Shown in pieces: positions 8,371 through 60,014 of a stretch of 64,000 bases of DNA. Made by a program: the position numbers and the translations under genes. The stretch comes from an uncultured Bdellovibrionales bacterium. Its GTDB lineage: Bacteria > Patescibacteriota > Minisyncoccia > Moranbacterales > UBA1568. Under the pieces are notes generated by a model. The model ran no database searches. It saw only the letters and a list, made by a program, of their open reading frames with translations, and was not told the DNA's origin. Each line of letters starts with the position of its first letter. The first letter of the stretch is position 1. The stretch is taken from positions 71,957-135,956 of the forward strand of contig CAZTBI010000001.1 in NCBI GenBank assembly GCA_964612055.1, read 5' to 3'.

Positions 8371-8544
8371 ATGGACAAAAGTCCGCCTTCCAAGCTGGAG
8401 CTGGACCCGGTCGCTTCGGCGAGAATTCAGGCCTGGTATCGGAAGTACTTGGAACGATGGAAGCAACACTCGCTTGAACGGGAGCAAGCAATGCGTGCTG
8501 CTGCGCAACGTGCCGAAGACGTGCGCGATACGCCGCTGTTCTGA
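8371..8544 (+). CDS. small hypothetical protein (57 aa), GC-rich ORF
   Basis: ORF MDKSPPSKLELDPVASARIQAWYRKYLERWKQH... sits between gatB and miaA and is locally GC-rich. It is followed by a clean intrinsic terminator. No homology is recognisable. Confidence 0.3.
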   Translation: MDKSPPSKLELDPVASARIQAWYRKYLERWKQHSLEREQAMRAAAQRAEDVRDTPLF

Positions 8545-8571: not shown

Positions 8572-8605
8572 GGTGCTACGAGAAAATTCGGAGCACCTTT
8601 TTTAT
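8572..8605. terminator. bidirectional rho-independent terminator (ggtgct...agcacc + T7)
   Basis: 6-bp GC stem with a 13-nt loop, followed by TTTTTTATT. It is located between convergent genes (small + ORF and miaA on -). Confidence 0.6.
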
Positions 8606-9505: not shown

Positions 9506-9561
9506 CGCACTAGTATGTCATATTTCTCTTTTTTGGCAAAGAATTTATAAATTTCTGCATC

Positions 9562-9695
9562 AGCAAGCAACCTTTCAAAGTACCGCTTGCTTGCCCTGGC
9601 GTGGCAAGCTGCTCTACGCTTCCACCCGCACTCTTTTTCCTTCGGAAAAAACCATGCCCGTTCGGGTTCCAGGGTTACTTTGGAAGATTCTTGCT
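9562..9695 (+). repeat. structured intergenic repeat R1, copy 1 (candidate ncRNA)
   Basis: About 135 nt. It is about 90% identical outside the variable P3 hairpin to 49893..50037. It forms three hairpins inside a closing helix, with compensatory differences between copies. Confidence 0.6.
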
Positions 9696-9738
9696 GAAAG
9701 AAATTTGGCGTCTCAAGTGAGCTCCTTCGCTCTTTCAT

Positions 9739-14131: not shown

Positions 14132-14271
14132 AACTCCGTGTTCCCAGAAATTCCCTTGTGCCACAAAAACACCAGCATGTTTTTGTTACTCTTCACCGAA
14201 ACTTTTCAGAAGACTGAAAAGACCATGCTTTCGGCTCCAGGCGTGCCCAAGGGAACTCCGGGAACACGGAG
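14132..14271 (+). other. structured intergenic element with 25-nt long-range inverted repeat (possible rpmF leader / small RNA)
   Basis: 5' arm aactccgtgttcccagaaattcccttg pairs with 3' arm caagggaactccgggaacacggag. Internal hairpins caaaaac/gtttttg and cttttcag/ctgaaaag. Confidence 0.4.
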
Positions 14272-14352
14272 CGCAGAGCCTGAGTCTTGCCAAAAGGGAA
14301 ATCCCGTGTTACATTGAGAGCAACGTAAATTTTCAGAGGAACCGTTACTGTT

Positions 14353-18954: not shown

Positions 18955-19143
18955 GGCTTGACGATAAGTAAGAAAGAGCGTACCCTAGGTATACAACCAA
19001 ATACTCCGTAGACATGAGGCAGCGCCTAAGCGCAGAAGTCCCTCACGAGGAAACACTCTCGATGACAGTCGAAAAGATAGCGTCAAGAGTAAGATTCTTC
19101 GAAGTCTGCGGTCATACCGCAGATTTTTGTTTTAGAAAAAATT
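18955..19143 (+). promoter_or_regulatory. rplJ (L10) leader with terminator-like attenuator hairpin
   Basis: 190-nt untranslated leader. Hairpin tctgcgg-tcata-ccgcaga (19105..19123) followed by TTTTTGTTTT, 11 nt before the rplJ start. Confidence 0.5.
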
Positions 19144-43870: not shown

Positions 43871-46048
43871 ATGCTTGATCAGAACGAAATTACTTTTTTT
43901 GCCAAGACGAACTTCCGCAATCAGGAGCGGGTTTTTGGTATCAAAACAGATGATCGACGCCGTCACATGTATGTGATCGGAAAGACGGGTATGGGAAAAA
44001 CCAACCTCTTGGAAAACCTAGCTATCCAGGATATTCAAAAAGGTCACGGTATTGCCTTTATCGATCCGCACGGTGATACGGCAGAAAAACTGATCAAAGC
44101 CATTCCGAGCAACCGTATCAATGATGTTATTTATTTCAACCCGGCTGATCAGGATTTTCCTATCGCGTTCAATGTGATGGAGAAGGTTGATCCAGAGTAT
44201 CGCCACCTTGTCGCTTCCGGTTTGGTCGGCGTGTTCAAAAAAATCTGGGCGGACTCCTGGGGACCACGTCTCGAATATATCTTGCGCAATGCTATTTTGG
44301 GACTGCTGGAATATCCGGGCAGTACGCTTCTCGGGGTGACGCGTATTTTGGTGGACAAATCTTATCGTGAACGCGTGGTAGAAAAAATCACCGACCCGGT
44401 GGTGCGTTCTTTCTGGGTGGATGAATTCTCAAAGTGGGATCCCCGCGTGCTTCAGGAGGTGATCTCGCCGATCCAGAACAAGGTGGGGCAGTTTCTTTCG
44501 AGCGCCCTTATCAGAAATATCGTTGGTCAGACAGTATCATCTTTCGATGTGCGCAAGATCATGGATGAACGCAAGATCCTCATCATGAACCTTTCCAAAG
44601 GTCGCCTCGGTGAAGATAATAGCGCCCTTCTGGGAGCCATGATGATTACCAAGATACAGCTCGCCGCTATGGGTCGGGTGGACATTCCTGAAGAGACCCG
44701 CGCTGACTTTTATCTCTACGTTGATGAATTCCAGAACTTTGCCACGGAGTCGTTTGCGAATATCCTTTCTGAAGCTCGTAAGTATCACTTGAACCTCATC
44801 CTGGCTAATCAGTACGTGACCCAGATTGATGAAGAGGTGCGTGATGCTATTTTCGGAAACGCAGGCTCTATCATCTCATTTCGAGTGGGCGCTATGGACG
44901 CCGAATTTTTGGAAAAGGAATTCGAGCCGGTTTTTATGATGAATGATATCGTCAATTTGGCGAAGTATCAGATTTACCTCAAGCTCATGATTGATGGTAT
45001 CGCGGGAGATGCTTTCAGTGCTACGACGCTGCCACCAATCAAACTTGAGACCGCTGCTAATGAGCAGAAGATTATTGATGCTTCTCGAGAACGTTATACG
45101 ACGAAGAAAGAAGAGGTAGAGGAGAAAATTCGTCGTTGGAGCGGCATGTTGTCAGCCGAAGAGCGTCAAGCCCTCGTTCAGCCAAGAAGCCCTGCTCCGA
45201 TTCCGGCAGCTCGACCAAAGGAACCTGTCAGGTCTCAAGCTCCCGCTCCGGCGCGTTCACAATCCGTGCCAGCTGCTCCGAGGGTAGAGCGGTCCGGAGA
45301 AGGTCGTTACGCCGCTCCCAAGGCCCCTGTCGCTCCTTCTATTCCGAAAGCTCCAGCCCCGGTAGTGTCTAAAGTTGCACCAGTCCAGAAGGAGGGGGCG
45401 TATTCTCCGAAACAAGCATCAGCCGTCTTGCAATCTGCTCTGACGCAGAAGCAAGCTCCAACTCCCGTCGCTCCGAAGCCAGATTTTGTGCCGCCCATGG
45501 CACCGAAGAAGGAACCGATGATTTCACTCGATGAATTTGAAAAGGAAGAGGAGAGGAGTCAGCTTCGGCTAGAAGAAAAAGAAGAGCCAGGGGATCAGGG
45601 AATAGTAGGGGGTGTCGAAACAGAAGCTTTGGCAGAGGTGCCGGAGAAGAAGCTCTACCAAGCACAGTGCGCCACCTGCGGCACTGATATTGAGGTGCCT
45701 TTTGAGCCAGATGGGAGTAGGCCAACTTTCTGCAAGGACTGTCTGCGTGATTATCAACGAGCGACCGCCAAGGCCCGCAATGAGATAGAGAAAAACCAAG
45801 CCACGAGAGCGGCGATGGGAAATGGAGGGGGCATGCCGCGGCAGAATGCTCCAGAACGGCGCGATATTCCTCGAGACCGCGTGGTTTCTCACCAATCCTA
45901 TGCTTCATCTGAACGGCCGCTTTCTTTGGCTCAGGTGCAACATATTGAACCCAAGAAATTCAAGGCCTTGAGAAAGCGACCAGAACTCAATCTCTCTGAG
46001 GTGCGAGCACTGATTGATGATACTCGAAGAACTCAAGGGGGCGCGTAG
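43871..46048 (+). CDS. VirD4/TraG/TraD-like (T4 coupling protein family) P-loop ATPase with Pro/Ala-rich linker and C-terminal CxxC...CxxC zinc ribbon
   Basis: Walker A VIGKTGMGKTNLL followed by the T4CP-typical IAFIDPHGD. Walker B is FYLYVDEFQNF. The C-terminus has QCATCGTDIEVPFEPDGSRPTFCKDCL. Confidence 0.55.
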   Translation: MLDQNEITFFAKTNFRNQERVFGIKTDDRRRHMYVIGKTGMGKTNLLENLAIQDIQKGHGIAFIDPHGDTAEKLIKAIPSNRINDVIYFNPADQDFPIAFNVMEKVDPEYRHLVASGLVGVFKKIWADSWGPRLEYILRNAILGLLEYPGSTLLGVTRILVDKSYRERVVEKITDPVVRSFWVDEFSKWDPRVLQEVISPIQNKVGQFLSSALIRNIVGQTVSSFDVRKIMDERKILIMNLSKGRLGEDNSALLGAMMITKIQLAAMGRVDIPEETRADFYLYVDEFQNFATESFANILSEARKYHLNLILANQYVTQIDEEVRDAIFGNAGSIISFRVGAMDAEFLEKEFEPVFMMNDIVNLAKYQIYLKLMIDGIAGDAFSATTLPPIKLETAANEQKIIDASRERYTTKKEEVEEKIRRWSGMLSAEERQALVQPRSPAPIPAARPKEPVRSQAPAPARSQSVPAAPRVERSGEGRYAAPKAPVAPSIPKAPAPVVSKVAPVQKEGAYSPKQASAVLQSALTQKQAPTPVAPKPDFVPPMAPKKEPMISLDEFEKEEERSQLRLEEKEEPGDQGIVGGVETEALAEVPEKKLYQAQCATCGTDIEVPFEPDGSRPTFCKDCLRDYQRATAKARNEIEKNQATRAAMGNGGGMPRQNAPERRDIPRDRVVSHQSYASSERPLSLAQVQHIEPKKFKALRKRPELNLSEVRALIDDTRRTQGGA

Positions 46049-47685: not shown

Positions 47686-47744
47686 GAGTAGCTAAAAATA
47701 GAGTCACCTTGAGGGCTTATACTCATCCTTATCTTTTTCTTATG

Positions 47745-48977
47745 GAAAATACCTCTTTCAACGAACAGGGCAACACTGTCATCGAGCAGCCTCTTCCTCC
47801 AAAAAGTTATAGCAAAGGAAAACTCGTTGTTTTTTTGATTCTCGCTCTCTTGTGTGGATTCGCTGGTGGCATGATCGCGCCAGCGCTCCAAGAGCGCTTT
47901 GCTCAGTATCTGCCTGAAATACTTCGGCCGATGAATTCGGTACTGGAAAAAAATACAGTGGTTCTTTCTGAGGAAAGCGCCGTAGCTGATTTGGTAGAAA
48001 AAAATTCTCCGGGGGTGGTCAGTATTGTTATTAGTAAAGATGTTCCCAAGGTGCGGAGCTTTTTTGGATTTCCGTTTTTTGATTCGGAAACTGGCAATGC
48101 GGAAACGAAAAAGCAGAAAGTGGGGAGTGGTTCCGGATTCTTTGTTTCATCGGATGGTTTGATTGTGACAAATAAACACGTGGTTGCTGATGAGGAAGCT
48201 GATTACACGGTTCTTCTGGGAAACGGGGATGAGTATAAGGCGACTGTCTTGGCGCGGGATCCGAGTAATGATATCGCGGTCATTCAAATTGAGGGCAAGG
48301 ATTTCCCTGTTTTGACACTGGGTGATTCCGAAAAGATTCGCGTGGGAGAAACCATCATCGCTATCGGTAATCCTCTGGGTGAGTTTGAAAACTCGGTCAG
48401 TCGAGGGATTGTCTCTGGTCTCCGTCGAAACCTCGATGCTGGTTCGGGTCTCGGTGATTCCGAACATCTTTCAGAGATTATCCAGATTGATGCCGCTATC
48501 AATCCTGGGAATTCCGGTGGGCCACTTTTCAATCTGGCGGGCGAAGTTATTGGCGTGAACGTTGCTATGGCTCAAGGAGCCGAAAATATCGGCTTTTCGC
48601 TCCCGATTAATCAGATCAAGCGCATCGTAGAACAAGTGCGTACCACGGGGAGACTTTCTTTCCCGTATCTGGGAGTGCGTTCTATTACCTTGGATGATGA
48701 ATTGAAGAAAAAGACTGGCCTCCCATTCAATTATGGGGCACTAGTGCTGCGTGGACAAACGGTGACGGATTTTGCTGTTGTGCCAGGCTCGCCAGCAGAC
48801 AAGGCTGGCATTGTCGAAAATGATATCATCCTTGAAATTGATGGCAAAAAAGTAGATACTGATCATAGCCTTGTCTCCTTCATGGCGCAGTATTCGGTTG
48901 GGGATGAAGTGACGGTAAAACTCTGGCACAAGGGAGAAGTGAAGGATGTGACCGTGAAGCTCGAAGAACGCCAGTAG
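47745..48977 (+). CDS. HtrA/DegP-family serine protease with PDZ domain
   Basis: Catalytic triad motifs are present (TNKHVV, DIAVIQ, GNSGGPLFN), followed by a C-terminal PDZ. Confidence 0.88.
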   Translation, partial: ENTSFNEQGNTVIEQPLPPKSYSKGKLVVFLILALLCGFAGGMIAPALQERFAQYLPEILRPMNSVLEKNTVVLSEESAVADLVEKNSPGVVSIVISKDVPKVRSFFGFPFFDSETGNAETKKQKVGSGSGFFVSSDGLIVTNKHVVADEEADYTVLLGNGDEYKATVLARDPSNDIAVIQIEGKDFPVLTLGDSEKIRVGETIIAIGNPLGEFENSVSRGIVSGLRRNLDAGSGLGDSEHLSEIIQIDAAINPGNSGGPLFNLAGEVIGVNVAMAQGAENIGFSLPINQIKRIVEQVRTTGRLSFPYLGVRSITLDDELKKKTGLPFNYGALVLRGQTVTDFAVVPGSPADKAGIVENDIILEIDGKKVDTDHSLVSFMAQYSVGDEVTVKLWHKGEVKDVTVKLEERQ

Positions 48978-49016: not shown

Positions 49017-49772
49017 ATGATTTTTCACCTTACTGTTTTTGTCTGGAGCTTAGCCTTTCTTGCTGGCCTTGAGGCGGTAGCACTCAATCCCATCTTTGCC
49101 TCTTGGAGTTGGTATCTTCTTTCTATTGGCGTGCTGGTCGCGATATCGCTCGGTGCCATTCGTCGTTTGACGGAGAATTCTTCAGATGCCTTTATTCCGA
49201 TTCTGCTTTCTCTCGCTTCGCCGACGCTCCTCTCGCTCGTCGATCATCCTGGTGAGCGGCAAGTGTTTGTTTTCCTAAGTGCGGTGATGTATTATTTCGC
49301 GCTCCTCGGGAACTACCGTCTCCACCATGCTCCTGCTGACAAAACGGGTGAGGCCTTTCTGAACTCAGCTGCGATGGCGGCCATGTTCTTCTTTTATGCC
49401 GGTCTGTACGGATTTTTTCTCAACTTCTCCTTTCCACTTTGGGGATTGATGCTTCTGTACTTTATTGGTACGGCACTGACCAGTTACGAGACGTTTATTA
49501 CCGTCGACAAGAAAGAACGCAAAAGAGTGATTCTCTACAGTGCGCTTCTCGGCTTTATCATGGGCGAGATGGTGCTCGTGATGAGTCTTTGGCCATTTGG
49601 GTACCTGACAACAGGGGCTCTCGGGACGATTCTTTTTTTCATCGCGTGGGATATTTCCTTTGATGCTTTTCGAGAGACGTTGTCATTGAAAAAGGCGATG
49701 ATTCGCATCCTATTTCTCATGATACTCGTCCTCCTTCTCCTTATCAGTTCTCCGTGGCGGATATTGGTGTAG
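49017..49772 (+). CDS. hypothetical polytopic membrane protein
   Basis: 251 aa with 6-7 predicted TM helices. No family recognised. Confidence 0.5.
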   Translation: MIFHLTVFVWSLAFLAGLEAVALNPIFASWSWYLLSIGVLVAISLGAIRRLTENSSDAFIPILLSLASPTLLSLVDHPGERQVFVFLSAVMYYFALLGNYRLHHAPADKTGEAFLNSAAMAAMFFFYAGLYGFFLNFSFPLWGLMLLYFIGTALTSYETFITVDKKERKRVILYSALLGFIMGEMVLVMSLWPFGYLTTGALGTILFFIAWDISFDAFRETLSLKKAMIRILFLMILVLLLLISSPWRILV

Positions 49773-49892
49773 AGCGTATTCTTGTTGTTCGTGACGGTTT
49801 TGCGATAGAGTTTCTTGGGAGTGAAAAATTACATACTTTTGGGGAGTTGTTTCCCAAAAATACCTTCCCTTTTCTTTTTAAGGAATTCCTAA

Positions 49893-50037
49893 ACCAAGCA
49901 ACCTCCCAAAGTACCGCTTGCTTGCCCCGGCGTGGCAAGCTGCTCTACGCTTCCACCCGCACTCTTTTTCTTCTGCCAGCTGGCAGAAGAAAAAACCATG
50001 CCCGTGCGGGCTCCAGAGTTACTTTGGAAGATTCTTG
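49893..50037 (+). repeat. structured intergenic repeat R1, copy 2
   Basis: Near-identical to 9562..9695 except that the P3 hairpin is extended (tttttcttctgcc-agc-tggcagaagaaaaa versus tttttcc-TTCG-ggaaaaa), with stem-preserving changes. Confidence 0.6.
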
Positions 50038-50091
50038 TTTAGGGATTCTCGGTATGCGCAGCGTTTTCGAAAATATTTTCATTTTCTTCAG

Positions 50092-50203
50092 CCGTGTCCT
50101 GTCGGTCACATTTGTCATGAGTGTACCGGTAACAGTCGAGCGTAATGAGTGGCTTCCGTCAGATAGCTCCCTGTTCGGCGAAGCGATTGAGAAATGTTCG
50201 ATA
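50092..50203 (+). repeat. intergenic repeat R2, copy 1
   Basis: About 112 nt. About 85% identical to the reverse complement of 59381..59497, with a shared core gtcggtNacatttgtNatgagtgNaccggtaacagtcgagcgtaa...agctccctgttcggc...gaaatgttcga. Confidence 0.55.
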
Positions 50204-50314
50204 GGACTAAAGGGGGAGAAAAGGGAACATATTTTTGAAAACGTACATACCATTTTTTGTTCAGAGGCATTTCTTGCCGAAAATGGTGAAATATGATAGA
50301 AGTAAAGCACTGTT

Positions 50315-51499
50315 ATGGCATCATTTTTCATCAAAAAAGCCCTTCTTTTCAGTTTTTTAGCCATCATCGTGCTCATCTTGGGCGGGGTGGGGGGTGTTTT
50401 TTTTGAGCGTTCACTGGTGCCGCGTTTGGCTGCTACAGAATACTTTGGGAACTGGGATATCTTCAAGAAAGCCGCAGAGCACGTGACGGTCATCAACAAG
50501 ACTGAGCAGATCGTGATCCGTGAAGATGATACCGTTGAAAGAATCGTTTCTCAGCCAGCAACGGCAGTGGTGAATATCGTGGCTTTGCCTGGGGTAAAGG
50601 GTGCGAAGGGGAGTACGGCCGCTTTGGGCGCAGCCGCAGAGACGGTCGTGACGACTACGGGTGTGCTGCTGACGAATGACGGTCTGGTAGCGACCTACAG
50701 CGAGCTTCCTTTTGATACTGAAAAGACAGAGTATTCCATCTTGCTTTACGATGGCTCGATCCACCAAGCGACGTTTGCTGGTCGAGACAAGTTGACGAAT
50801 CTTTCATTTTTCCGAGTGAGCGATGCTTCCAATACGCCGGCCATTGCTTTTGCAAATTCCGATGACGCACGCGTAGGAAGAAAGCTGATTGCGATCGGGA
50901 ATACATTTGCGGAATATCAGAATCGTTTGGCCGTAGGTATCCTTTCCAATATCAATCGCATCTTCAATCTTTCTGGAAAAACGGTTGCTTCCTCAGAAAA
51001 GTGGGAAGGAGTCTTTGAGATGGATCTGGCTAGACCAGAATCGTTCGTCGGTGGTCCGGTGATCGGTTTCAATGGGGAGATGGTTGGTATCGTAGGAACA
51101 CTCGCCATCAACAATACACTCCAGTCGTTTGTCATTCCATCGAATGTGGTGCGCGATGCTCTTAATCGTCTGATCGCTGGGACATTGGAGAGGCGGCCGA
51201 TTCTTGGTGCGTACTATCTCTCGATTACGAAAGCTTTGGCACTGGGTCAAGGTCTCGCTCGTGATCGTGGGGCGCTTGTCTATTCGCGCTCTGGTTCCAC
51301 TGGTCTTGCCCTGATCGCTGATTCACCGGCCATGAAGGCTGGGATTCTGGCAGGGGATATTATTATCTCGGTAAACGGTACCGAAGTGAATCTCGACAAT
51401 CCGCTCCCAGAGATACTGTCACGCTTCAATGTTGGCGACACGCTTTCTCTGGTCATTCTCCGCAACAATGAGGAGCGGACCATCGAAGTGAAACTGTAA
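50315..51499 (+). CDS. HtrA-like pseudo-protease with PDZ domain (catalytic His and Ser substituted)
   Basis: Trypsin-fold/PDZ architecture aligns with the neighbouring HtrA. The His motif reads TNDGLV and the Ser motif reads ESFVGGPV (no GNSGGP). Confidence 0.7.
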   Translation: MASFFIKKALLFSFLAIIVLILGGVGGVFFERSLVPRLAATEYFGNWDIFKKAAEHVTVINKTEQIVIREDDTVERIVSQPATAVVNIVALPGVKGAKGSTAALGAAAETVVTTTGVLLTNDGLVATYSELPFDTEKTEYSILLYDGSIHQATFAGRDKLTNLSFFRVSDASNTPAIAFANSDDARVGRKLIAIGNTFAEYQNRLAVGILSNINRIFNLSGKTVASSEKWEGVFEMDLARPESFVGGPVIGFNGEMVGIVGTLAINNTLQSFVIPSNVVRDALNRLIAGTLERRPILGAYYLSITKALALGQGLARDRGALVYSRSGSTGLALIADSPAMKAGILAGDIIISVNGTEVNLDNPLPEILSRFNVGDTLSLVILRNNEERTIEVKL

Positions 51500-57867: not shown

Positions 57868-59325
57868 ATGGCCAAAGATAACGTCGTTCTCAGATTTGAT
57901 AAAGTGTCCTTCGAATACGGGCACAAAAAGCCTATTTTAGATGAGGTGAGTTTTAGCATGCGCAGTGGCTCCAAGATCACGCTCATGGGACAAAACGGCG
58001 CTGGTAAAAGCTCGCTTTTTAAGCTCATCACTGGTGAAGAAAAACCACAGAGCGGGCGTATTTCTCTTGATAGGGATGCTGTGGTAGCTATCGGTCGCCA
58101 GACGATTCCGCGCGATCAGCTCGATATGACAGTGGAAGATTTTTTCCAACAGTTTTTTCATGAGAAGAAGTGGAACCTTCCCGCTTTGATCAAGGATGTT
58201 TTGGAAGTGGTCAATCTGCCGGTGCCGCCGCTTGAGAAAAAGATCCGTCAATTTTCTGGTGGTCAGCAGGCACGCTTGCTTCTTGCCTCAGCACTTATTC
58301 AGGATCCAGACATCCTGCTCCTTGATGAACCGACCAACAACCTTGATTACGCTGGTATCTCACACCTGACGCAGTTTCTGATCGATTACAAGAAGACGGT
58401 TATCGTCATTTCTCACGATGCGGAGTTTTTGAATGCTTTTACCGAGGGCGTGTTTTACCTTGATGTTTTCACTCATCAAATTGAGCAGTACACGGGTAAC
58501 TACTATGACGTGGTAGAGGAGATCGCTAGACGTATTGCCAAGGCGCAGAGCGAAAACGTTCGTTTGGAGCGTACCATACAGGAAAAGAAAGATCAGGCGA
58601 ACGTCTTTGCCAACAAAGGAGGAAAGCTCCGTGCTGTCGCGAAGCGGATGCGTACATTGGCTGAAGAGCTTGAAGAGAACAAAGTCGACGTCCGTCGTGA
58701 AGATAAAACACTTTCTCCTTTTGAAATTTCTACCAATGATGTCGTGGGACCGATTGTGAATATCAAAACGGTTTCGGTTTTGGGTGAGTTTGGTCCCAAT
58801 ATCAAACGAGTTGACATGATACTGAAGAAAAATACTCACCTCGTTGTCTCTGGTCCAAACGGTATTGGCAAGAGCACGTTTCTCGAAGAATTGGCGACGG
58901 GCAATACCGAACGCGCTGAAATTACACCGGGCGTGAAAGTCGGTTACTACCGCCAGGATTTCTCGACGCTTGATTTTGATAAAACAGTAGCAGAGACGCT
59001 CCTTGCTTCACTTCCAGAGAAGAATACTGAATTGGCCTACAAAGTGGCAACGAAATTTCTGGTGCCGTCTGAGCTCCTCCAGAACAAAGTCGCCAGTCTT
59101 TCAGAGGGACAGAAGGGACTCCTTATGTTTGCCTGTCTCTACGCCGAAAAGCCAGACCTTCTCATTCTTGATGAACCGACAAACCATATCAACTTTCGTC
59201 ATTTACCAGTGATTGCTGAGGCGCTCGACAATTACAAAGGCGCTCTGATACTAGTTTCCCACGTTCCAGACTTTGTAGCGCAAATCCGCATCGACGAAGT
59301 GTTGGATTTGGAATCTTTGAGCTAG
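57868..59325 (+). CDS. ABC-F family ATPase (two tandem ABC domains, no TMD)
   Basis: Two Walker A motifs (GQNGAGKSSLF, GPNGIGKSTFL), two LSGGQ-like signatures (FSGGQQARL, LSEGQKGLL) and two Walker B motifs (LLLDEPTN, LILDEPTN). Confidence 0.88.
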   Translation: MAKDNVVLRFDKVSFEYGHKKPILDEVSFSMRSGSKITLMGQNGAGKSSLFKLITGEEKPQSGRISLDRDAVVAIGRQTIPRDQLDMTVEDFFQQFFHEKKWNLPALIKDVLEVVNLPVPPLEKKIRQFSGGQQARLLLASALIQDPDILLLDEPTNNLDYAGISHLTQFLIDYKKTVIVISHDAEFLNAFTEGVFYLDVFTHQIEQYTGNYYDVVEEIARRIAKAQSENVRLERTIQEKKDQANVFANKGGKLRAVAKRMRTLAEELEENKVDVRREDKTLSPFEISTNDVVGPIVNIKTVSVLGEFGPNIKRVDMILKKNTHLVVSGPNGIGKSTFLEELATGNTERAEITPGVKVGYYRQDFSTLDFDKTVAETLLASLPEKNTELAYKVATKFLVPSELLQNKVASLSEGQKGLLMFACLYAEKPDLLILDEPTNHINFRHLPVIAEALDNYKGALILVSHVPDFVAQIRIDEVLDLESLS

Positions 59326-59380
59326 GTGTTGTTAGGCCTGACTTCGGAGAAGATTTAATTTTTCTGACCACTTTCGTTTC

Positions 59381-59497
59381 GTCGAACATTTCTGACTCGT
59401 TCTGCCGAACAGGGAGCTAGCCGCTCGAAACCATCGCGTTACGCTCGACTGTTACCGGTTCACTCATCACAAATGTTACCGACGGCACACGGGATGC
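59381..59497 (-). repeat. intergenic repeat R2, copy 2 (inverted)
   Basis: Its reverse complement aligns along its length with 50092..50203. It lies between convergent genes. Confidence 0.55.
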
Positions 59498-59567
59498 AGA
59501 AAAATCAAACCTTTCCTTCGCTATACTCGGGTATTTCGGCCGTATTAGATTTTCTATGCGGCCTTGA

Positions 59568-60014
59568 TTATTTTTCCTTTTCGAAAAATATGTTCCAGAA
59601 AAGGTAGCCGGCGAGAAAGAAGCCGGCGATGAAGACAGGAATGAGGAGTGGGGGAAATTTGATGAGTGAGACTGAGAGGATGCCAACTGCCCAGAAGATA
59701 CCGAGCCACAGAAGGGGGCTCTTTTTTGTGATGTTCCAGGAAAATGAAAGATTGAGGTAGCGCCCGAGGAGGGCGGTGGCGAAAGTGGAGAGCGTGAGGA
59801 TGAGCAAGAACTTGGCGAGGCTGAAACGTGTGGTTACGAACGTTGGGAGGAGTGTTTCAATGGTGAAGAAGCCGGCAAAATAGAGGTAGCCGATGATAAG
59901 AGCTTCAACAGCGAGGGCATAGACGATATGGAGCGCTCCAGATGTGCGCCACTTTTCGAGAGAAGGGGTGAGTTGCTTGAATAAGAAATCCATAAGAGTG
60001 TTTTTAGGCGTCAC
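59568..60014 (-). CDS. hypothetical small polytopic membrane protein
   Basis: 148 aa with 4 TM helices. Overlaps the upstream gene by 11 nt. Confidence 0.5.
   Translation of the reverse strand: MTPKNTLMDFLFKQLTPSLEKWRTSGALHIVYALAVEALIIGYLYFAGFFTIETLLPTFVTTRFSLAKFLLILTLSTFATALLGRYLNLSFSWNITKKSPLLWLGIFWAVGILSVSLIKFPPLLIPVFIAGFFLAGYLFWNIFFEKEK

What the first reader, a model, noticed from the sequence alone, without database searches (positions are those of the whole stretch)
49893..50037. Repeat family R1 copy 2, immediately followed by an unrelated second repeat (R2)
This is the same element as 9562..9695 with an expanded P3 hairpin. It is located in the 540-nt gap between a membrane-protein gene and the inactive HtrA paralog.

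About 55 nt downstream begins repeat R2 (50092..50203), so this intergenic region is a composite of two different structured repeat modules.

This suggests a family of small modular, possibly mobile (MITE-like) or regulatory RNA elements in this genome.
Basis: seen in the sequence. Interest (0 to 1): 0.6.

Follow-up and report, generated by a model that had tools for sequence, protein, structure and literature searches.

The report
Mobile structured repeat modules between genes
The flagged sequence is a real copy of a small, hairpin-closed, non-coding repeat that comes and goes between genes in a Candidatus Moranbacteria genome, next to a second repeat of a different family; it is a new example of the known class of bacterial interspersed structured repeats, and its function is untested.

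Summary
R1 at 49892-50040 matches 9561-9696 at about 93% identity. The only indel is a 13-nt expansion of a palindromic hairpin. R2 (50083-50231) has a second copy at 59352-59501 on the minus strand.

Neither repeat matches an Rfam family. Exact-word scans of three public DNA collections returned only chance hits.

The organism is a Candidatus Moranbacteria (CPR) bacterium. In related genomes the same intergenic gaps are empty (44-52 nt) or carry different module combinations and orientations. Logan assemblies repeatedly break inside the modules. This is presence/absence polymorphism typical of mobile or unstable repeats.

A third family, R3 (14136-14268), shares R1's four-way-junction architecture. 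All families show compensatory base-pair changes well above shuffled and slid controls.

No target-site duplication, transposase, promoter or terminator was found. R1 is regularly followed by R2 or an R2 remnant, so the two modules are linked but also occur separately.

Best reading: a lineage-specific set of MITE/bcr1/Correia-like structured repeat modules that sit between an upstream stop codon and the next gene's promoter-proximal region. Their fold is under selection, probably as RNA. The kind is known; the families are new.

The parts
49892..50040 (-). R1 copy 2 (R1b), the flagged element. The core is closed by a stem of about 21 bp and contains a four-way junction.
   Evidence: Covariance model 'R1' scores 151.4 bits, E = 8e-36, over the full model. 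It aligns with copy 1. Fold z-score is -4.9 on the minus strand and -3.9 on the plus strand.
49965..49994 (.). Expanded P3 hairpin, a perfect 30-nt palindrome (TTTTTCTTCTGCCAG|CTGGCAGAAGAAAAA). It accounts for the only indel against copy 1.
   Evidence: Self-inverted BLAST hit, 30/30. The 13-nt gap shows in the alignment. Orthologues vary in the loop and in one stem base.
49880..49894 (.). Copy-specific outer stem of R1b, 5' arm (AAGGAATTCCTAAAC). It pairs with 50038-50050.
   Evidence: The minimum-free-energy fold extends the closing stem by 13 bp into sequence not shared with copy 1. Flank duplex against shuffled flank, p = 0.03.
50038..50050 (.). Copy-specific outer stem of R1b, 3' arm (TTTAGGGATTCTC).
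50083..50231 (+). R2 copy a: a rod-like hairpin with internal loops and a purine-rich 3' tail.
   Evidence: Covariance model 'R2' scores 166.7 bits. Fold z-score is -2.8 on the plus strand and -1.4 on the minus strand. Covariation is shown.
50062..50076 (.). R2a outer inverted repeat, 5' arm (CGTTTTCGAAAATAT).
   Evidence: Read from the sequence. It matches the reverse complement of 50229-50243 at 14 of 15 positions. The same motif occurs in strain D next to R1c.
50229..50243 (.). R2a outer inverted repeat, 3' arm (ATATTTTTGAAAACG).
49854..49876 (.). A second, distal copy of the R2 5'-arm-like sequence, upstream of R1b. It is the inverted complement of the R2a 3' tail at 50217-50240.
   Evidence: BLAST of the R2 query: positions 168-188 match 49875-49855 at 90%. 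This bracketing of R1b by R2-arm sequence suggests nesting; that is inference.
49777..50273 (.). The whole 497-nt block that is absent from the orthologous gap of related Moranbacteria. That gap is 52 nt in L058-L060 and 44 nt in L051-L053.
9561..9696 (-). R1 copy 1 (R1a), between the dnaE stop codon (9739) and the miaA start (9505), upstream of the miaA promoter-like site.
   Evidence: Model R1 scores 160.2 bits.
59352..59501 (-). R2 copy b, between the ABC-F gene (stop at 59325) and a 148-aa membrane-protein gene (59568-60014, minus strand).
   Evidence: Model R2 scores 148.3 bits.
14136..14268 (-). R3: a third module family with the same architecture as R1, placed at the stop codon of RNase HII and upstream of the rpmF promoter-like site.
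   Evidence: It is 83% identical to the strain-D 'X' element. Fold z-scores are -7.5 and -7.9. It is found by the R1-only model at 24.7 bits, E about 5e-4. The empty site in L046/L048 is shown.

Best explanation
R1 copy 2 is one member of a lineage-specific set of small non-coding repeat modules in a Candidatus Moranbacteria genome. The families are R1 and R3 (about 135-175 bp; a long closing stem around a four-way junction) and R2 (about 150-185 bp; a rod-like hairpin).

Shown:
- The modules are gained, lost, inverted and combined in mosaics.
- They sit in the short gaps between an upstream stop codon and the conserved sequence just upstream of the next gene.
- They are absent from the same gaps in related genomes.
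- They are removed by deletions between short direct repeats.
- Their helices are kept by compensatory changes while some loops stay constant.

Inferred:
- They spread as non-autonomous mobile or recombinogenic DNA, in the manner of MITE, bcr1 or Correia elements.
- The selected fold acts in RNA made by read-through from the neighbouring genes. It would serve as a stable double-stranded structure that influences processing or decay of the flanking messages, or as a folded single strand needed for the element's own spread.
- R1 and R2 are separate modules that tend to travel as an R1-then-R2 pair.
For: Repeat status. There are two R1 and two R2 copies in 64 kb. At least 15 Logan contig ends fall inside R1 or R2. 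Examples are L001, L035, L037, L039, L040, L036/L038, L044/L045, L047, L050 and L066-L074.

Polymorphism at the DUF5656 / HtrA-like gap:
- R1+R2 in the window, L041 and L043.
- In L042, a 208-nt deletion between two AGAGTT repeats removes R1.
- In strain D, an R3-like module plus an inverted R1c, with no R2.
- In L065, an R3-like module, half of R2 and an inverted R1e.
- Gap lengths of 122 nt in L066, 52 nt in L058-60 and 44 nt in L051-53.

Polymorphism at the dnaE-miaA gap: R1 only in the window; R1+R2 in L049; R2 in the other orientation and no R1 in L046/L048.

Polymorphism at the RNase HII-rpmF gap: R3 in the window and L049; an R2-like block at the same point in L047; empty in L046/L048, which encode the same DnaE protein as L047.

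Structure:
- R2: 90.5% of cells paired; 14 pairs changed on both sides against 6.0±1.8 in shuffles (0 of 500); slid controls give 1-4. With 10 sequences, 24 pairs against 10.7±1.8.
- R1/R3: 92.7% paired; 24 pairs against 9.2±2.1 (0 of 500); slid controls give 2-8. A MAFFT/RNAalifold run that does not depend on the model gives 12 such pairs.
- The P2 loop AYGCYRG and the junction GCAUGG are kept while the stems are replaced.

Not coding. The 13-nt indel shifts the frame. The 180-aa ORF across the gap has no homologue outside its own cluster.

Not a known RNA. There are no Rfam matches.

Closest described precedent. bcr1 of the Bacillus cereus group is about 155 bp, has a non-conserved distribution, is transcribed, and keeps an RNA structure through compensatory changes (Delihas 2011, PMC3184786, read).
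Against: - No direct target-site duplication was seen at any copy. Instead the flanks form copy-specific inverted repeats.
- No transposase, integrase or reverse transcriptase was found in the window ORFs tested, and none appears among the Pfam families listed for the called genes of the fetched loci. A partner IS elsewhere in the genome could not be searched for.
- Only three or four independent R1 copies and about five independent R2 copies were available, and two of the covariation counts use model-fitted alignments.
- Compensatory changes in DNA palindromes can also arise from intra-strand template switching, without any selection on RNA.
- R1 and R2 prefer opposite strands for folding although they lie side by side, which is awkward for a single read-through RNA.
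- Transcription was not tested.
- Some presence/absence states are better read as deletions than as insertions. Examples are L042, and the window's dnaE site, which keeps an R2 arm-like stretch.
Confidence: 0.6

Rival explanations
1. R1/R3 and R2 are genes for trans-acting structured small RNAs, a multi-copy RNA gene family. Differences between strains would reflect duplication and loss rather than mobility.
For: - Covariation is strong and some loop and junction nucleotides are conserved.
- G-U pairs outnumber A-C mismatches on one strand: 9 against 3 positions for R1/R3 and 12 against 7 for R2. This count is biased by the strand on which each model was built.
- Two G-U pairs are nearly invariant in R2.
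- The R1-only model recovers R3 through the shared architecture.
Against: - No promoter-like or terminator-like site brackets the flagged copies. The organism does have canonical terminators elsewhere.
- The copies are absent from the same gaps in genomes 83% identical in DNA.
- R3 is absent and an R2-like block is present or absent between strains that share an identical DnaE protein.
- Copies are truncated or nested.
- Orientation relative to neighbouring genes varies.
Confidence: 0.2
2. The modules are remnants or ends of a larger mobile element, such as an IS200/IS605-type element with subterminal hairpins and no duplication, an IS110-type element, or an integrative element. The autonomous copy would lie elsewhere in the genome.
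For: - There is no target-site duplication.
- The structures are strand-asymmetric and hairpin-rich.
- R1 and R2 recur in a fixed order and spacing, as two ends of one unit would.
- A bare palindrome is left where R2 would sit in strain D.
Against: - No transposase domain was found in the ORFs tested, and none appears among the Pfam families listed for the genes called in the related loci.
- R2 occurs alone at several sites.
- There is no Rfam hit to the IS605-associated or other mobile-element RNA families.
Confidence: 0.12
3. R1 and/or R2 is a cis-regulatory leader (riboswitch, attenuator or protein-binding leader) for the HtrA-like gene.
For: R2a lies about 85 nt upstream of the gene, on the same strand, and is well structured.
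Against: - Close relatives keep the same gene with a 44-52-nt gap and no module.
- In strain D, R2 is missing and R1 is inverted.
- The other copies sit after genes, antisense to genes, or next to unrelated genes such as dnaE/miaA, ABC-F and RNase HII.
Confidence: 0.03
4. The gap encodes a real 180-aa protein (49754-50296), as deposited in NCBI and JGI.
For: The ORF is open across R1 and R2 and has been called as a hypothetical protein twice.
Against: - It has no homologue outside its own 90% cluster among 5.8 billion proteins.
- The ORF is destroyed in L042 and in strain D, and absent in L058.
- R1 copy 1 differs by a frame-shifting 13-nt indel.
- Base changes follow the helices, not codon positions.
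Confidence: 0.01

Closest known systems
bcr1 repeats of the Bacillus cereus group (Okstad 2004; Klevan 2007, as summarised in Delihas 2011, PMC3184786)
   Same: Both are non-coding elements of about 150 bp. Both differ in genomic position between close strains. Both fold into a multi-stem structure that is kept by compensatory base changes.
   Different: bcr1 is flanked by 5-bp direct repeats and is known to be transcribed. Here no duplication was found and transcription is untested. There is no sequence similarity, and the phylum is different (CPR).
MITEs such as Neisseria Correia/nemis, cyanobacterial Nezha and Coxiella QMITEs
   Same: They are small, lack an ORF, have terminal inverted repeats that form a long stem, lie between genes, show filled and empty sites between relatives, and can supply gene ends. 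R3 supplies a new stop codon for RNase HII.
   Different: A classical MITE has a target-site duplication and termini matching a resident IS. Neither was found here. The outermost stem is specific to each copy.
Mosaic or modular repeats: E. coli BIMEs and pneumococcal BOX (boxA-boxB-boxC)
   Same: Different short modules are combined in variable order, number and orientation within the same intergenic gaps.
   Different: BIME and REP units are 20-40-nt GC-rich palindromes tied to RAYT transposases. BOX modules are about 45-60 nt. The modules here are 130-185 nt, each with a complex fold.
ERIC/IRU elements of enterobacteria
   Same: They are imperfect palindromes of about 127 bp found in transcribed intergenic regions, in either orientation, with internal insertions of variable length. 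This parallels R1's expanded P3 and R3y's extra hairpin.
   Different: The sequence and host range are unrelated. ERIC is a single long hairpin rather than a four-way junction.

Membership tests
MITE | Short (<~400 bp), no transposase ORF | tested here: met
   The elements are 135-185 nt. The only ORF across them is spurious.
MITE | Terminal inverted repeats | tested here: met
   R1 ends CAAGCAACCTYYCAAAGTA...TACTTTGRAAGATTCTTG and forms a closing stem of about 21 bp. R2a has arms CGTTTTCGAAAATAT / ATATTTTTGAAAACG.
MITE | Direct target-site duplication flanking each copy | tested here: not met
   The flanks of R1a, R1b, R1c, R1e, R3w and R3x are inverted repeats, not direct repeats. The only candidate is AAA/AAA around the R2 block in L049, which is equally well explained as deletion microhomology.
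MITE | Filled and empty orthologous sites in relatives | tested here: met
MITE | Termini matching a resident autonomous IS | not testable with these tools
   The rest of the source genome could not be fetched. No transposase domain was found in the window ORFs tested.
MITE | Many copies per genome | tested here: inconclusive
   There are two copies per family in 64 kb, and contigs break inside the modules in several assemblies. The genome-wide count is unknown. Exact-word scans of the public collections found no further copies.
REP/BIME | 20-40-nt GC-rich palindrome with a conserved GTAG-type head, and a RAYT gene in the genome | tested here: not met
   The modules are 4-6 times longer and multi-helix. 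No RAYT or Y1 transposase domain was seen in the ORFs tested.
Any Rfam 15 RNA family (including riboswitches, 6S, self-cleaving ribozymes and IS-associated RNAs) | Score at or near the family's gathering threshold | tested here: not met
   At gathering thresholds only a tRNA was found in the window. At E <= 10 nothing fell on R1b or R2a and only weak sub-threshold matches (17 bits or less) overlapped R1a and R3.
cis-regulatory leader / riboswitch | Constant position and orientation upstream of one gene family | tested here: not met
   The copies lie next to unrelated genes, in both orientations, and are missing upstream of the same gene in relatives.
Intrinsic terminator | GC-rich stem followed directly by a U run | tested here: not met
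   The consensus scan found nothing convincing in 49700-50400. A canonical terminator is present at 8572-8603 for comparison.
bcr1-like structured mobile repeat | Non-conserved genomic distribution plus an RNA-type structure kept by compensatory changes | tested here: met
   The definition is taken from PMC3184786.
bcr1-like structured mobile repeat | 5-bp direct repeats and demonstrated transcription | tested here: not met
   No direct repeats were found. Transcription cannot be tested with these tools.

The most novel reading that the evidence does not exclude
R1/R3 and R2 may be a new class of mobile structured RNAs in CPR bacteria, rather than passive DNA repeats. In this reading each module is a functional RNA, for example a guide, bridge or ribozyme-like RNA, or the RNA partner of an unrecognised recombinase. 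Its fold, conserved loops (AYGCYRG, GCAUGG, GGUAACAGUCGAGCG) and copy-specific outer stems would direct its own insertion without target duplication. This would explain the inverted rather than direct flanks and the recurrent R1-R2 pairing on opposite strands.
Probability: 0.08. Interest if true: 0.8.

Novelty: new member of a known kind. Interest (0 to 1): 0.5.

Why it matters
CPR/Patescibacteria genomes are very small and are usually described as poor in repeats. This one carries at least three families of structured, strain-variable modules that fill otherwise tiny intergenic gaps.

Practical consequences:
- They break metagenome assemblies.
- They create spurious "hypothetical proteins" in databases.
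- In one case a module supplies a new stop codon for a gene.

If the conserved folds act as RNA, they would be an unrecognised layer of post-transcriptional control, or a new selfish RNA/DNA element, in an uncultivated phylum. If they do not, they are still useful strain markers and a caution for annotation of CPR genomes.

Tried and rejected
1. Exact-word scans for R1 found only chance matches in coding regions of unrelated organisms. The scans were a 20-mer in 185,579 species genomes, an 18-mer in JGI metagenomes and a 16-mer in IMG/VR. It shows only that these exact words are rare, not that the family is absent.
2. I looked for R1/R2 copies disguised as predicted proteins. The 180-aa ORF found only itself. 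A full HMMER scan with the 99-aa ORF over R1a found the L049-type orthologue and two diverged R1-derived ORFs, P0047 and P0048. It also returned an 11-stretch match to a 1557-aa protein, which I treated as a low-complexity artefact.
3. Rfam was searched at gathering and at permissive thresholds on all three families. There were no matches.
4. The source contig (485,659 nt, NCBI) could not be fetched beyond the window.
5. Insertion into pre-existing palindromic targets is contradicted for R3 by the empty site in L046. It is not excluded for R2, given the strain D palindrome.
6. A small conserved peptide in R2 (MS.PVTVER) was rejected. Its length is not conserved and the variation follows the helices.
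7. attC-like core sites at the R1b flanks were rejected because the other copies lack them.
8. The literature searches found no description of such repeats in CPR, Patescibacteria or Moranbacteria.

Full report
**1. The observation**

The window holds two copies of R1 on the same strand: 9564-9693 and 49895-50037.
- One block of 76 nt is 96% identical and one block of 49 nt is 94% identical.
- The blocks are separated by a 13-nt indel.
- Words of 16 and 20 nt taken from the element occur exactly twice in the window. For the 20-mer, none of 100 shuffles gave two matches.

R2 begins 45 nt after R1. It has a second copy on the opposite strand at 59382-59503 (82% identity over 122 nt, E = 4e-28).

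The gap is 49773-50314 (542 nt). It lies between a DUF5656 gene and a trypsin/PDZ protein. Aligned with the true HtrA two genes upstream, that protein has lost the His, Asp and Ser of the catalytic triad.

The description is therefore correct.

**2. Not coding, and not a known RNA**

A 180-aa ORF (49754-50296) runs through both repeats. It is deposited as a hypothetical protein in NCBI and JGI.
- Among 5.8 billion protein clusters it finds only itself.
- It is destroyed or absent in relatives (section 4).
- The two R1 copies differ by a frame-shifting indel.

Rfam 15 gives only a tRNA in the window at gathering thresholds. At E <= 10 nothing falls on R1b or R2a, and only weak matches far below the gathering scores overlap R1a and R3.

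**3. The organism and the search for more copies**

The exact-word scans of the genome, metagenome and viral collections returned only chance hits in unrelated coding DNA.

Cluster look-ups of the flanking proteins gave relatives at 90% identity or more. These are named Candidatus Moranbacteria by NCBI. Their contigs could be fetched.

An identical Logan contig (L001) starts inside R1 at 49941. Many other Logan contigs end or start inside R1 or R2. Repeats present at several loci produce exactly this pattern in de Bruijn-graph assemblies.

**4. Behaviour in related genomes**

DUF5656 / HtrA-like gap:
- L041, L043 and L040 keep R1+R2.
- L042 lacks 208 nt (49813-50020) between two AGAGTT hexamers and retains the last 17 nt of R1. 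This is a microhomology deletion.
- Strain D is the join of L036 and L044 through a 25-nt overlap. It has a different module (R3-like), then a diverged full-length R1 (R1c) in inverted orientation, and no R2.
- In lineage E, L065 has an R3-like module, only the 3' half of R2, and an inverted R1e. In L066 the gap is 122 nt.
- In L058-L060 the gap is 52 nt. These loci are about 83% identical to the window in DNA and have the same gene order. In L051-L053 the gap is 44 nt. In all cases the last ~45 nt before the start codon are conserved.
- The 497 nt at 49777-50273 are therefore lineage-specific.

dnaE-miaA gap:
- The window has R1 only.
- L049 has R1 plus R2, in the same order, orientation and 42-nt spacing as at 49.9 kb.
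- L046/L048 have R2 in the other orientation and no R1.
- L047 and L050 end inside R2.

RNase HII-rpmF gap:
- The window and L049 carry R3.
- L047 carries a diverged R2-like block of about 245 nt at the same point.
- L046/L048 encode the same DnaE protein as L047 and are empty there (AAGAAG|GGCTGAGTCTTGCC).
- The R3 and R2-like blocks each bring their own stop codon for RNase HII.

About 190 kb from two further lineages contain no R1, R2 or R3.

**5. Structure**

R1. On the window minus strand, R1 folds into a closing stem of about 21 bp around a four-way junction.
- The junction holds a helix enclosing GGGCAUGG plus the variable P3 hairpin, a 2-bp hairpin, and hairpin P2 with loop ACGCCRG.
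- The consensus energy is -51.7 kcal/mol on this strand against -36.8 on the plus strand, for the same alignment.
- A covariance model built from R1 alone recovers R3 over the full model length. Scores are 24.7 bits in the window, 32.5 bits in L036 and 23.1 bits in L049/L050. It also recovers the diverged R1e copies at 69-85 bits.
- R1 and R3 therefore share one architecture. In R1e and R3 the P2 stem is entirely different, while the loop AYGCYRG and the junction GCAUGG persist.

Counts for R1/R3 (model-fitted alignment):
- 92.7% of cells are paired.
- 24 pairs changed on both sides, against 9.2±2.1 in shuffles (0 of 500).
- Slid controls give 2-8.

R2. It is a rod-like hairpin on the window plus strand.
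- On a MAFFT alignment, 90.5% of cells are paired. 14 pairs changed on both sides, against 6.0±1.8 in shuffles (0 of 500). Slid controls give 1-4.
- With ten sequences, 24 pairs changed on both sides, against 10.7±1.8.
- Two G-U pairs are nearly invariant: 9 of 9 and 8 of 9 sequences.

Limits on this evidence:
- Independent copies are few.
- Two of the alignments are fitted to the model.
- Intra-strand template switching can "correct" DNA palindromes without any selection on RNA.

**6. Ends and flanks**

No direct target-site duplication was found. Instead, the sequence just outside the family-shared core forms a copy-specific inverted repeat of 7-13 bp in six of seven independent R1/R3 copies. 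Each has p <= 0.04 against a shuffled flank.

For R3 the outer stem lies inside the block that is missing from the empty site. It is therefore part of what was gained, not a pre-existing palindromic target.

R2a has its own 15-nt inverted arms (50062-50076 and 50229-50243). Strain D retains a bare palindrome of the same motif where R2 would sit.

A further copy of the arm-like sequence lies upstream of R1b (49854-49876), so R1b may be nested in R2-derived sequence. That is inference.

How these flanks arise is unexplained.

**7. Context**

Promoter-like sites of the form TTGCCA-N17-TAnAnT lie between the modules and the downstream genes rpmF (14287-14315) and miaA (9511-9539, minus strand). 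This is read from the sequence.

The ~45 nt upstream of the HtrA-like gene are conserved even in the empty-site relatives. The modules therefore occupy the stretch between the upstream stop codon and the sequence just upstream of the next gene.

The consensus scan found nothing convincing in the flagged gap: two weak 9-of-12 promoter-like matches on the minus strand outside the modules, and two terminator-like stems with only 3 G-C pairs. The organism does use canonical terminators, for example at 8572-8603.

No transposase, integrase or reverse-transcriptase domain was found in the 28 window ORFs tested.

**8. Interpretation**

The best-supported reading is a set of lineage-specific, non-autonomous, structured repeat modules. 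They are gained, lost, inverted and combined in intergenic gaps, and their folds are under selection.

The closest described precedent is bcr1 of the Bacillus cereus group (PMC3184786). Correia, ERIC, BIME and BOX elements are functional analogues.

Membership of the classical MITE class fails on target-site duplication and is untested for a cognate IS. I therefore describe the elements as MITE-like rather than as MITEs.

The role of the fold is inferred, not shown. It may act in RNA processing or stability within read-through transcripts, or as a folded single strand used in the element's own spread.

The rivals are listed with their tests: small-RNA genes, ends of an unseen IS, a cis-regulator, and a real protein.

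**9. Verdict**

- R1's preferred strand is the opposite one.
- A third family, R3, is structurally related to R1.
- R1 and R2 are linked in position.
- There is no target-site duplication.

This is a new set of families of a known kind. Interest is moderate. It would rise if the modules prove to be functional RNAs or to move by a mechanism that produces the inverted flanks.

Noticed in passing
window 14136-14268: A third structured repeat family (R3) sits at the stop codon of RNase HII. It is related to R1 in architecture. Orthologues in L049/L050 carry an extra internal hairpin. A copy also lies in the strain-D DUF5656/HtrA gap.
   Followed up: yes
window 49754-50296: A 180-aa ORF spanning R1+R2 is deposited as a hypothetical protein in NCBI and JGI. 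It has no homologues outside its own cluster and is best treated as a spurious gene call over repeats. The R1 core has almost no stop codons in any of the six frames.
   Followed up: yes
window 50315-51499 vs 47709-48977: The second trypsin/PDZ protein has lost the His, Asp and Ser of the HtrA catalytic triad. TNKHV becomes TYSEL, NDIAV becomes TNLSF, and GNSGGP becomes ESFVGGP. The protein is conserved in all relatives.
   Followed up: partly
L046 1-60 (RNase HII-rpmF gap of a related strain): A 27-nt perfect palindrome (ACCACACCAACCAGGTTGGTGTGGTGG) is inserted in the rpmF promoter-like region, with CTTGCC present on both sides. It is a small REP-like insertion with an apparent 6-bp duplication.
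   Followed up: no
L049 3745-4160: The intergenic segment between the S16 and L10 genes (window 18955-19143) is present twice in this MAG.
   Followed up: no
window 8371-8544 and 8572-8603: An unannotated 57-codon ORF lies between gatB and miaA. Diverged counterparts occur in L046/L049. It is followed by a canonical GC-stem plus T-run terminator shared with the convergent miaA.
   Followed up: partly
window 14287-14315 (+) and 9511-9539 (-): A promoter-like TTGCCA-N17-TAnAnT motif lies upstream of rpmF and miaA. For miaA the start codon follows within about 6 nt of the -10 element, which suggests a leaderless message.
   Followed up: no
L061 12018-12299: A 93-aa GIY-YIG ORF is present in one strain only, between the clpB-like and glycosyltransferase genes. 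It is a possible homing-endonuclease insertion.
   Followed up: no
P0048 (205 aa) and P0047 (83 aa), contigs not fetched: These predicted proteins from other assemblies read through diverged R1 sequence. P0048 also reads through R2 in the same relative order. The R1-R2 pair therefore exists in more distant genomes.
   Followed up: partly
window 43871-46048: A 725-aa protein whose counterpart in L035 has weak TrwB/coupling-protein and zinc-finger Pfam hits lies next to a DUF8128 protein. It was not examined.
   Followed up: no
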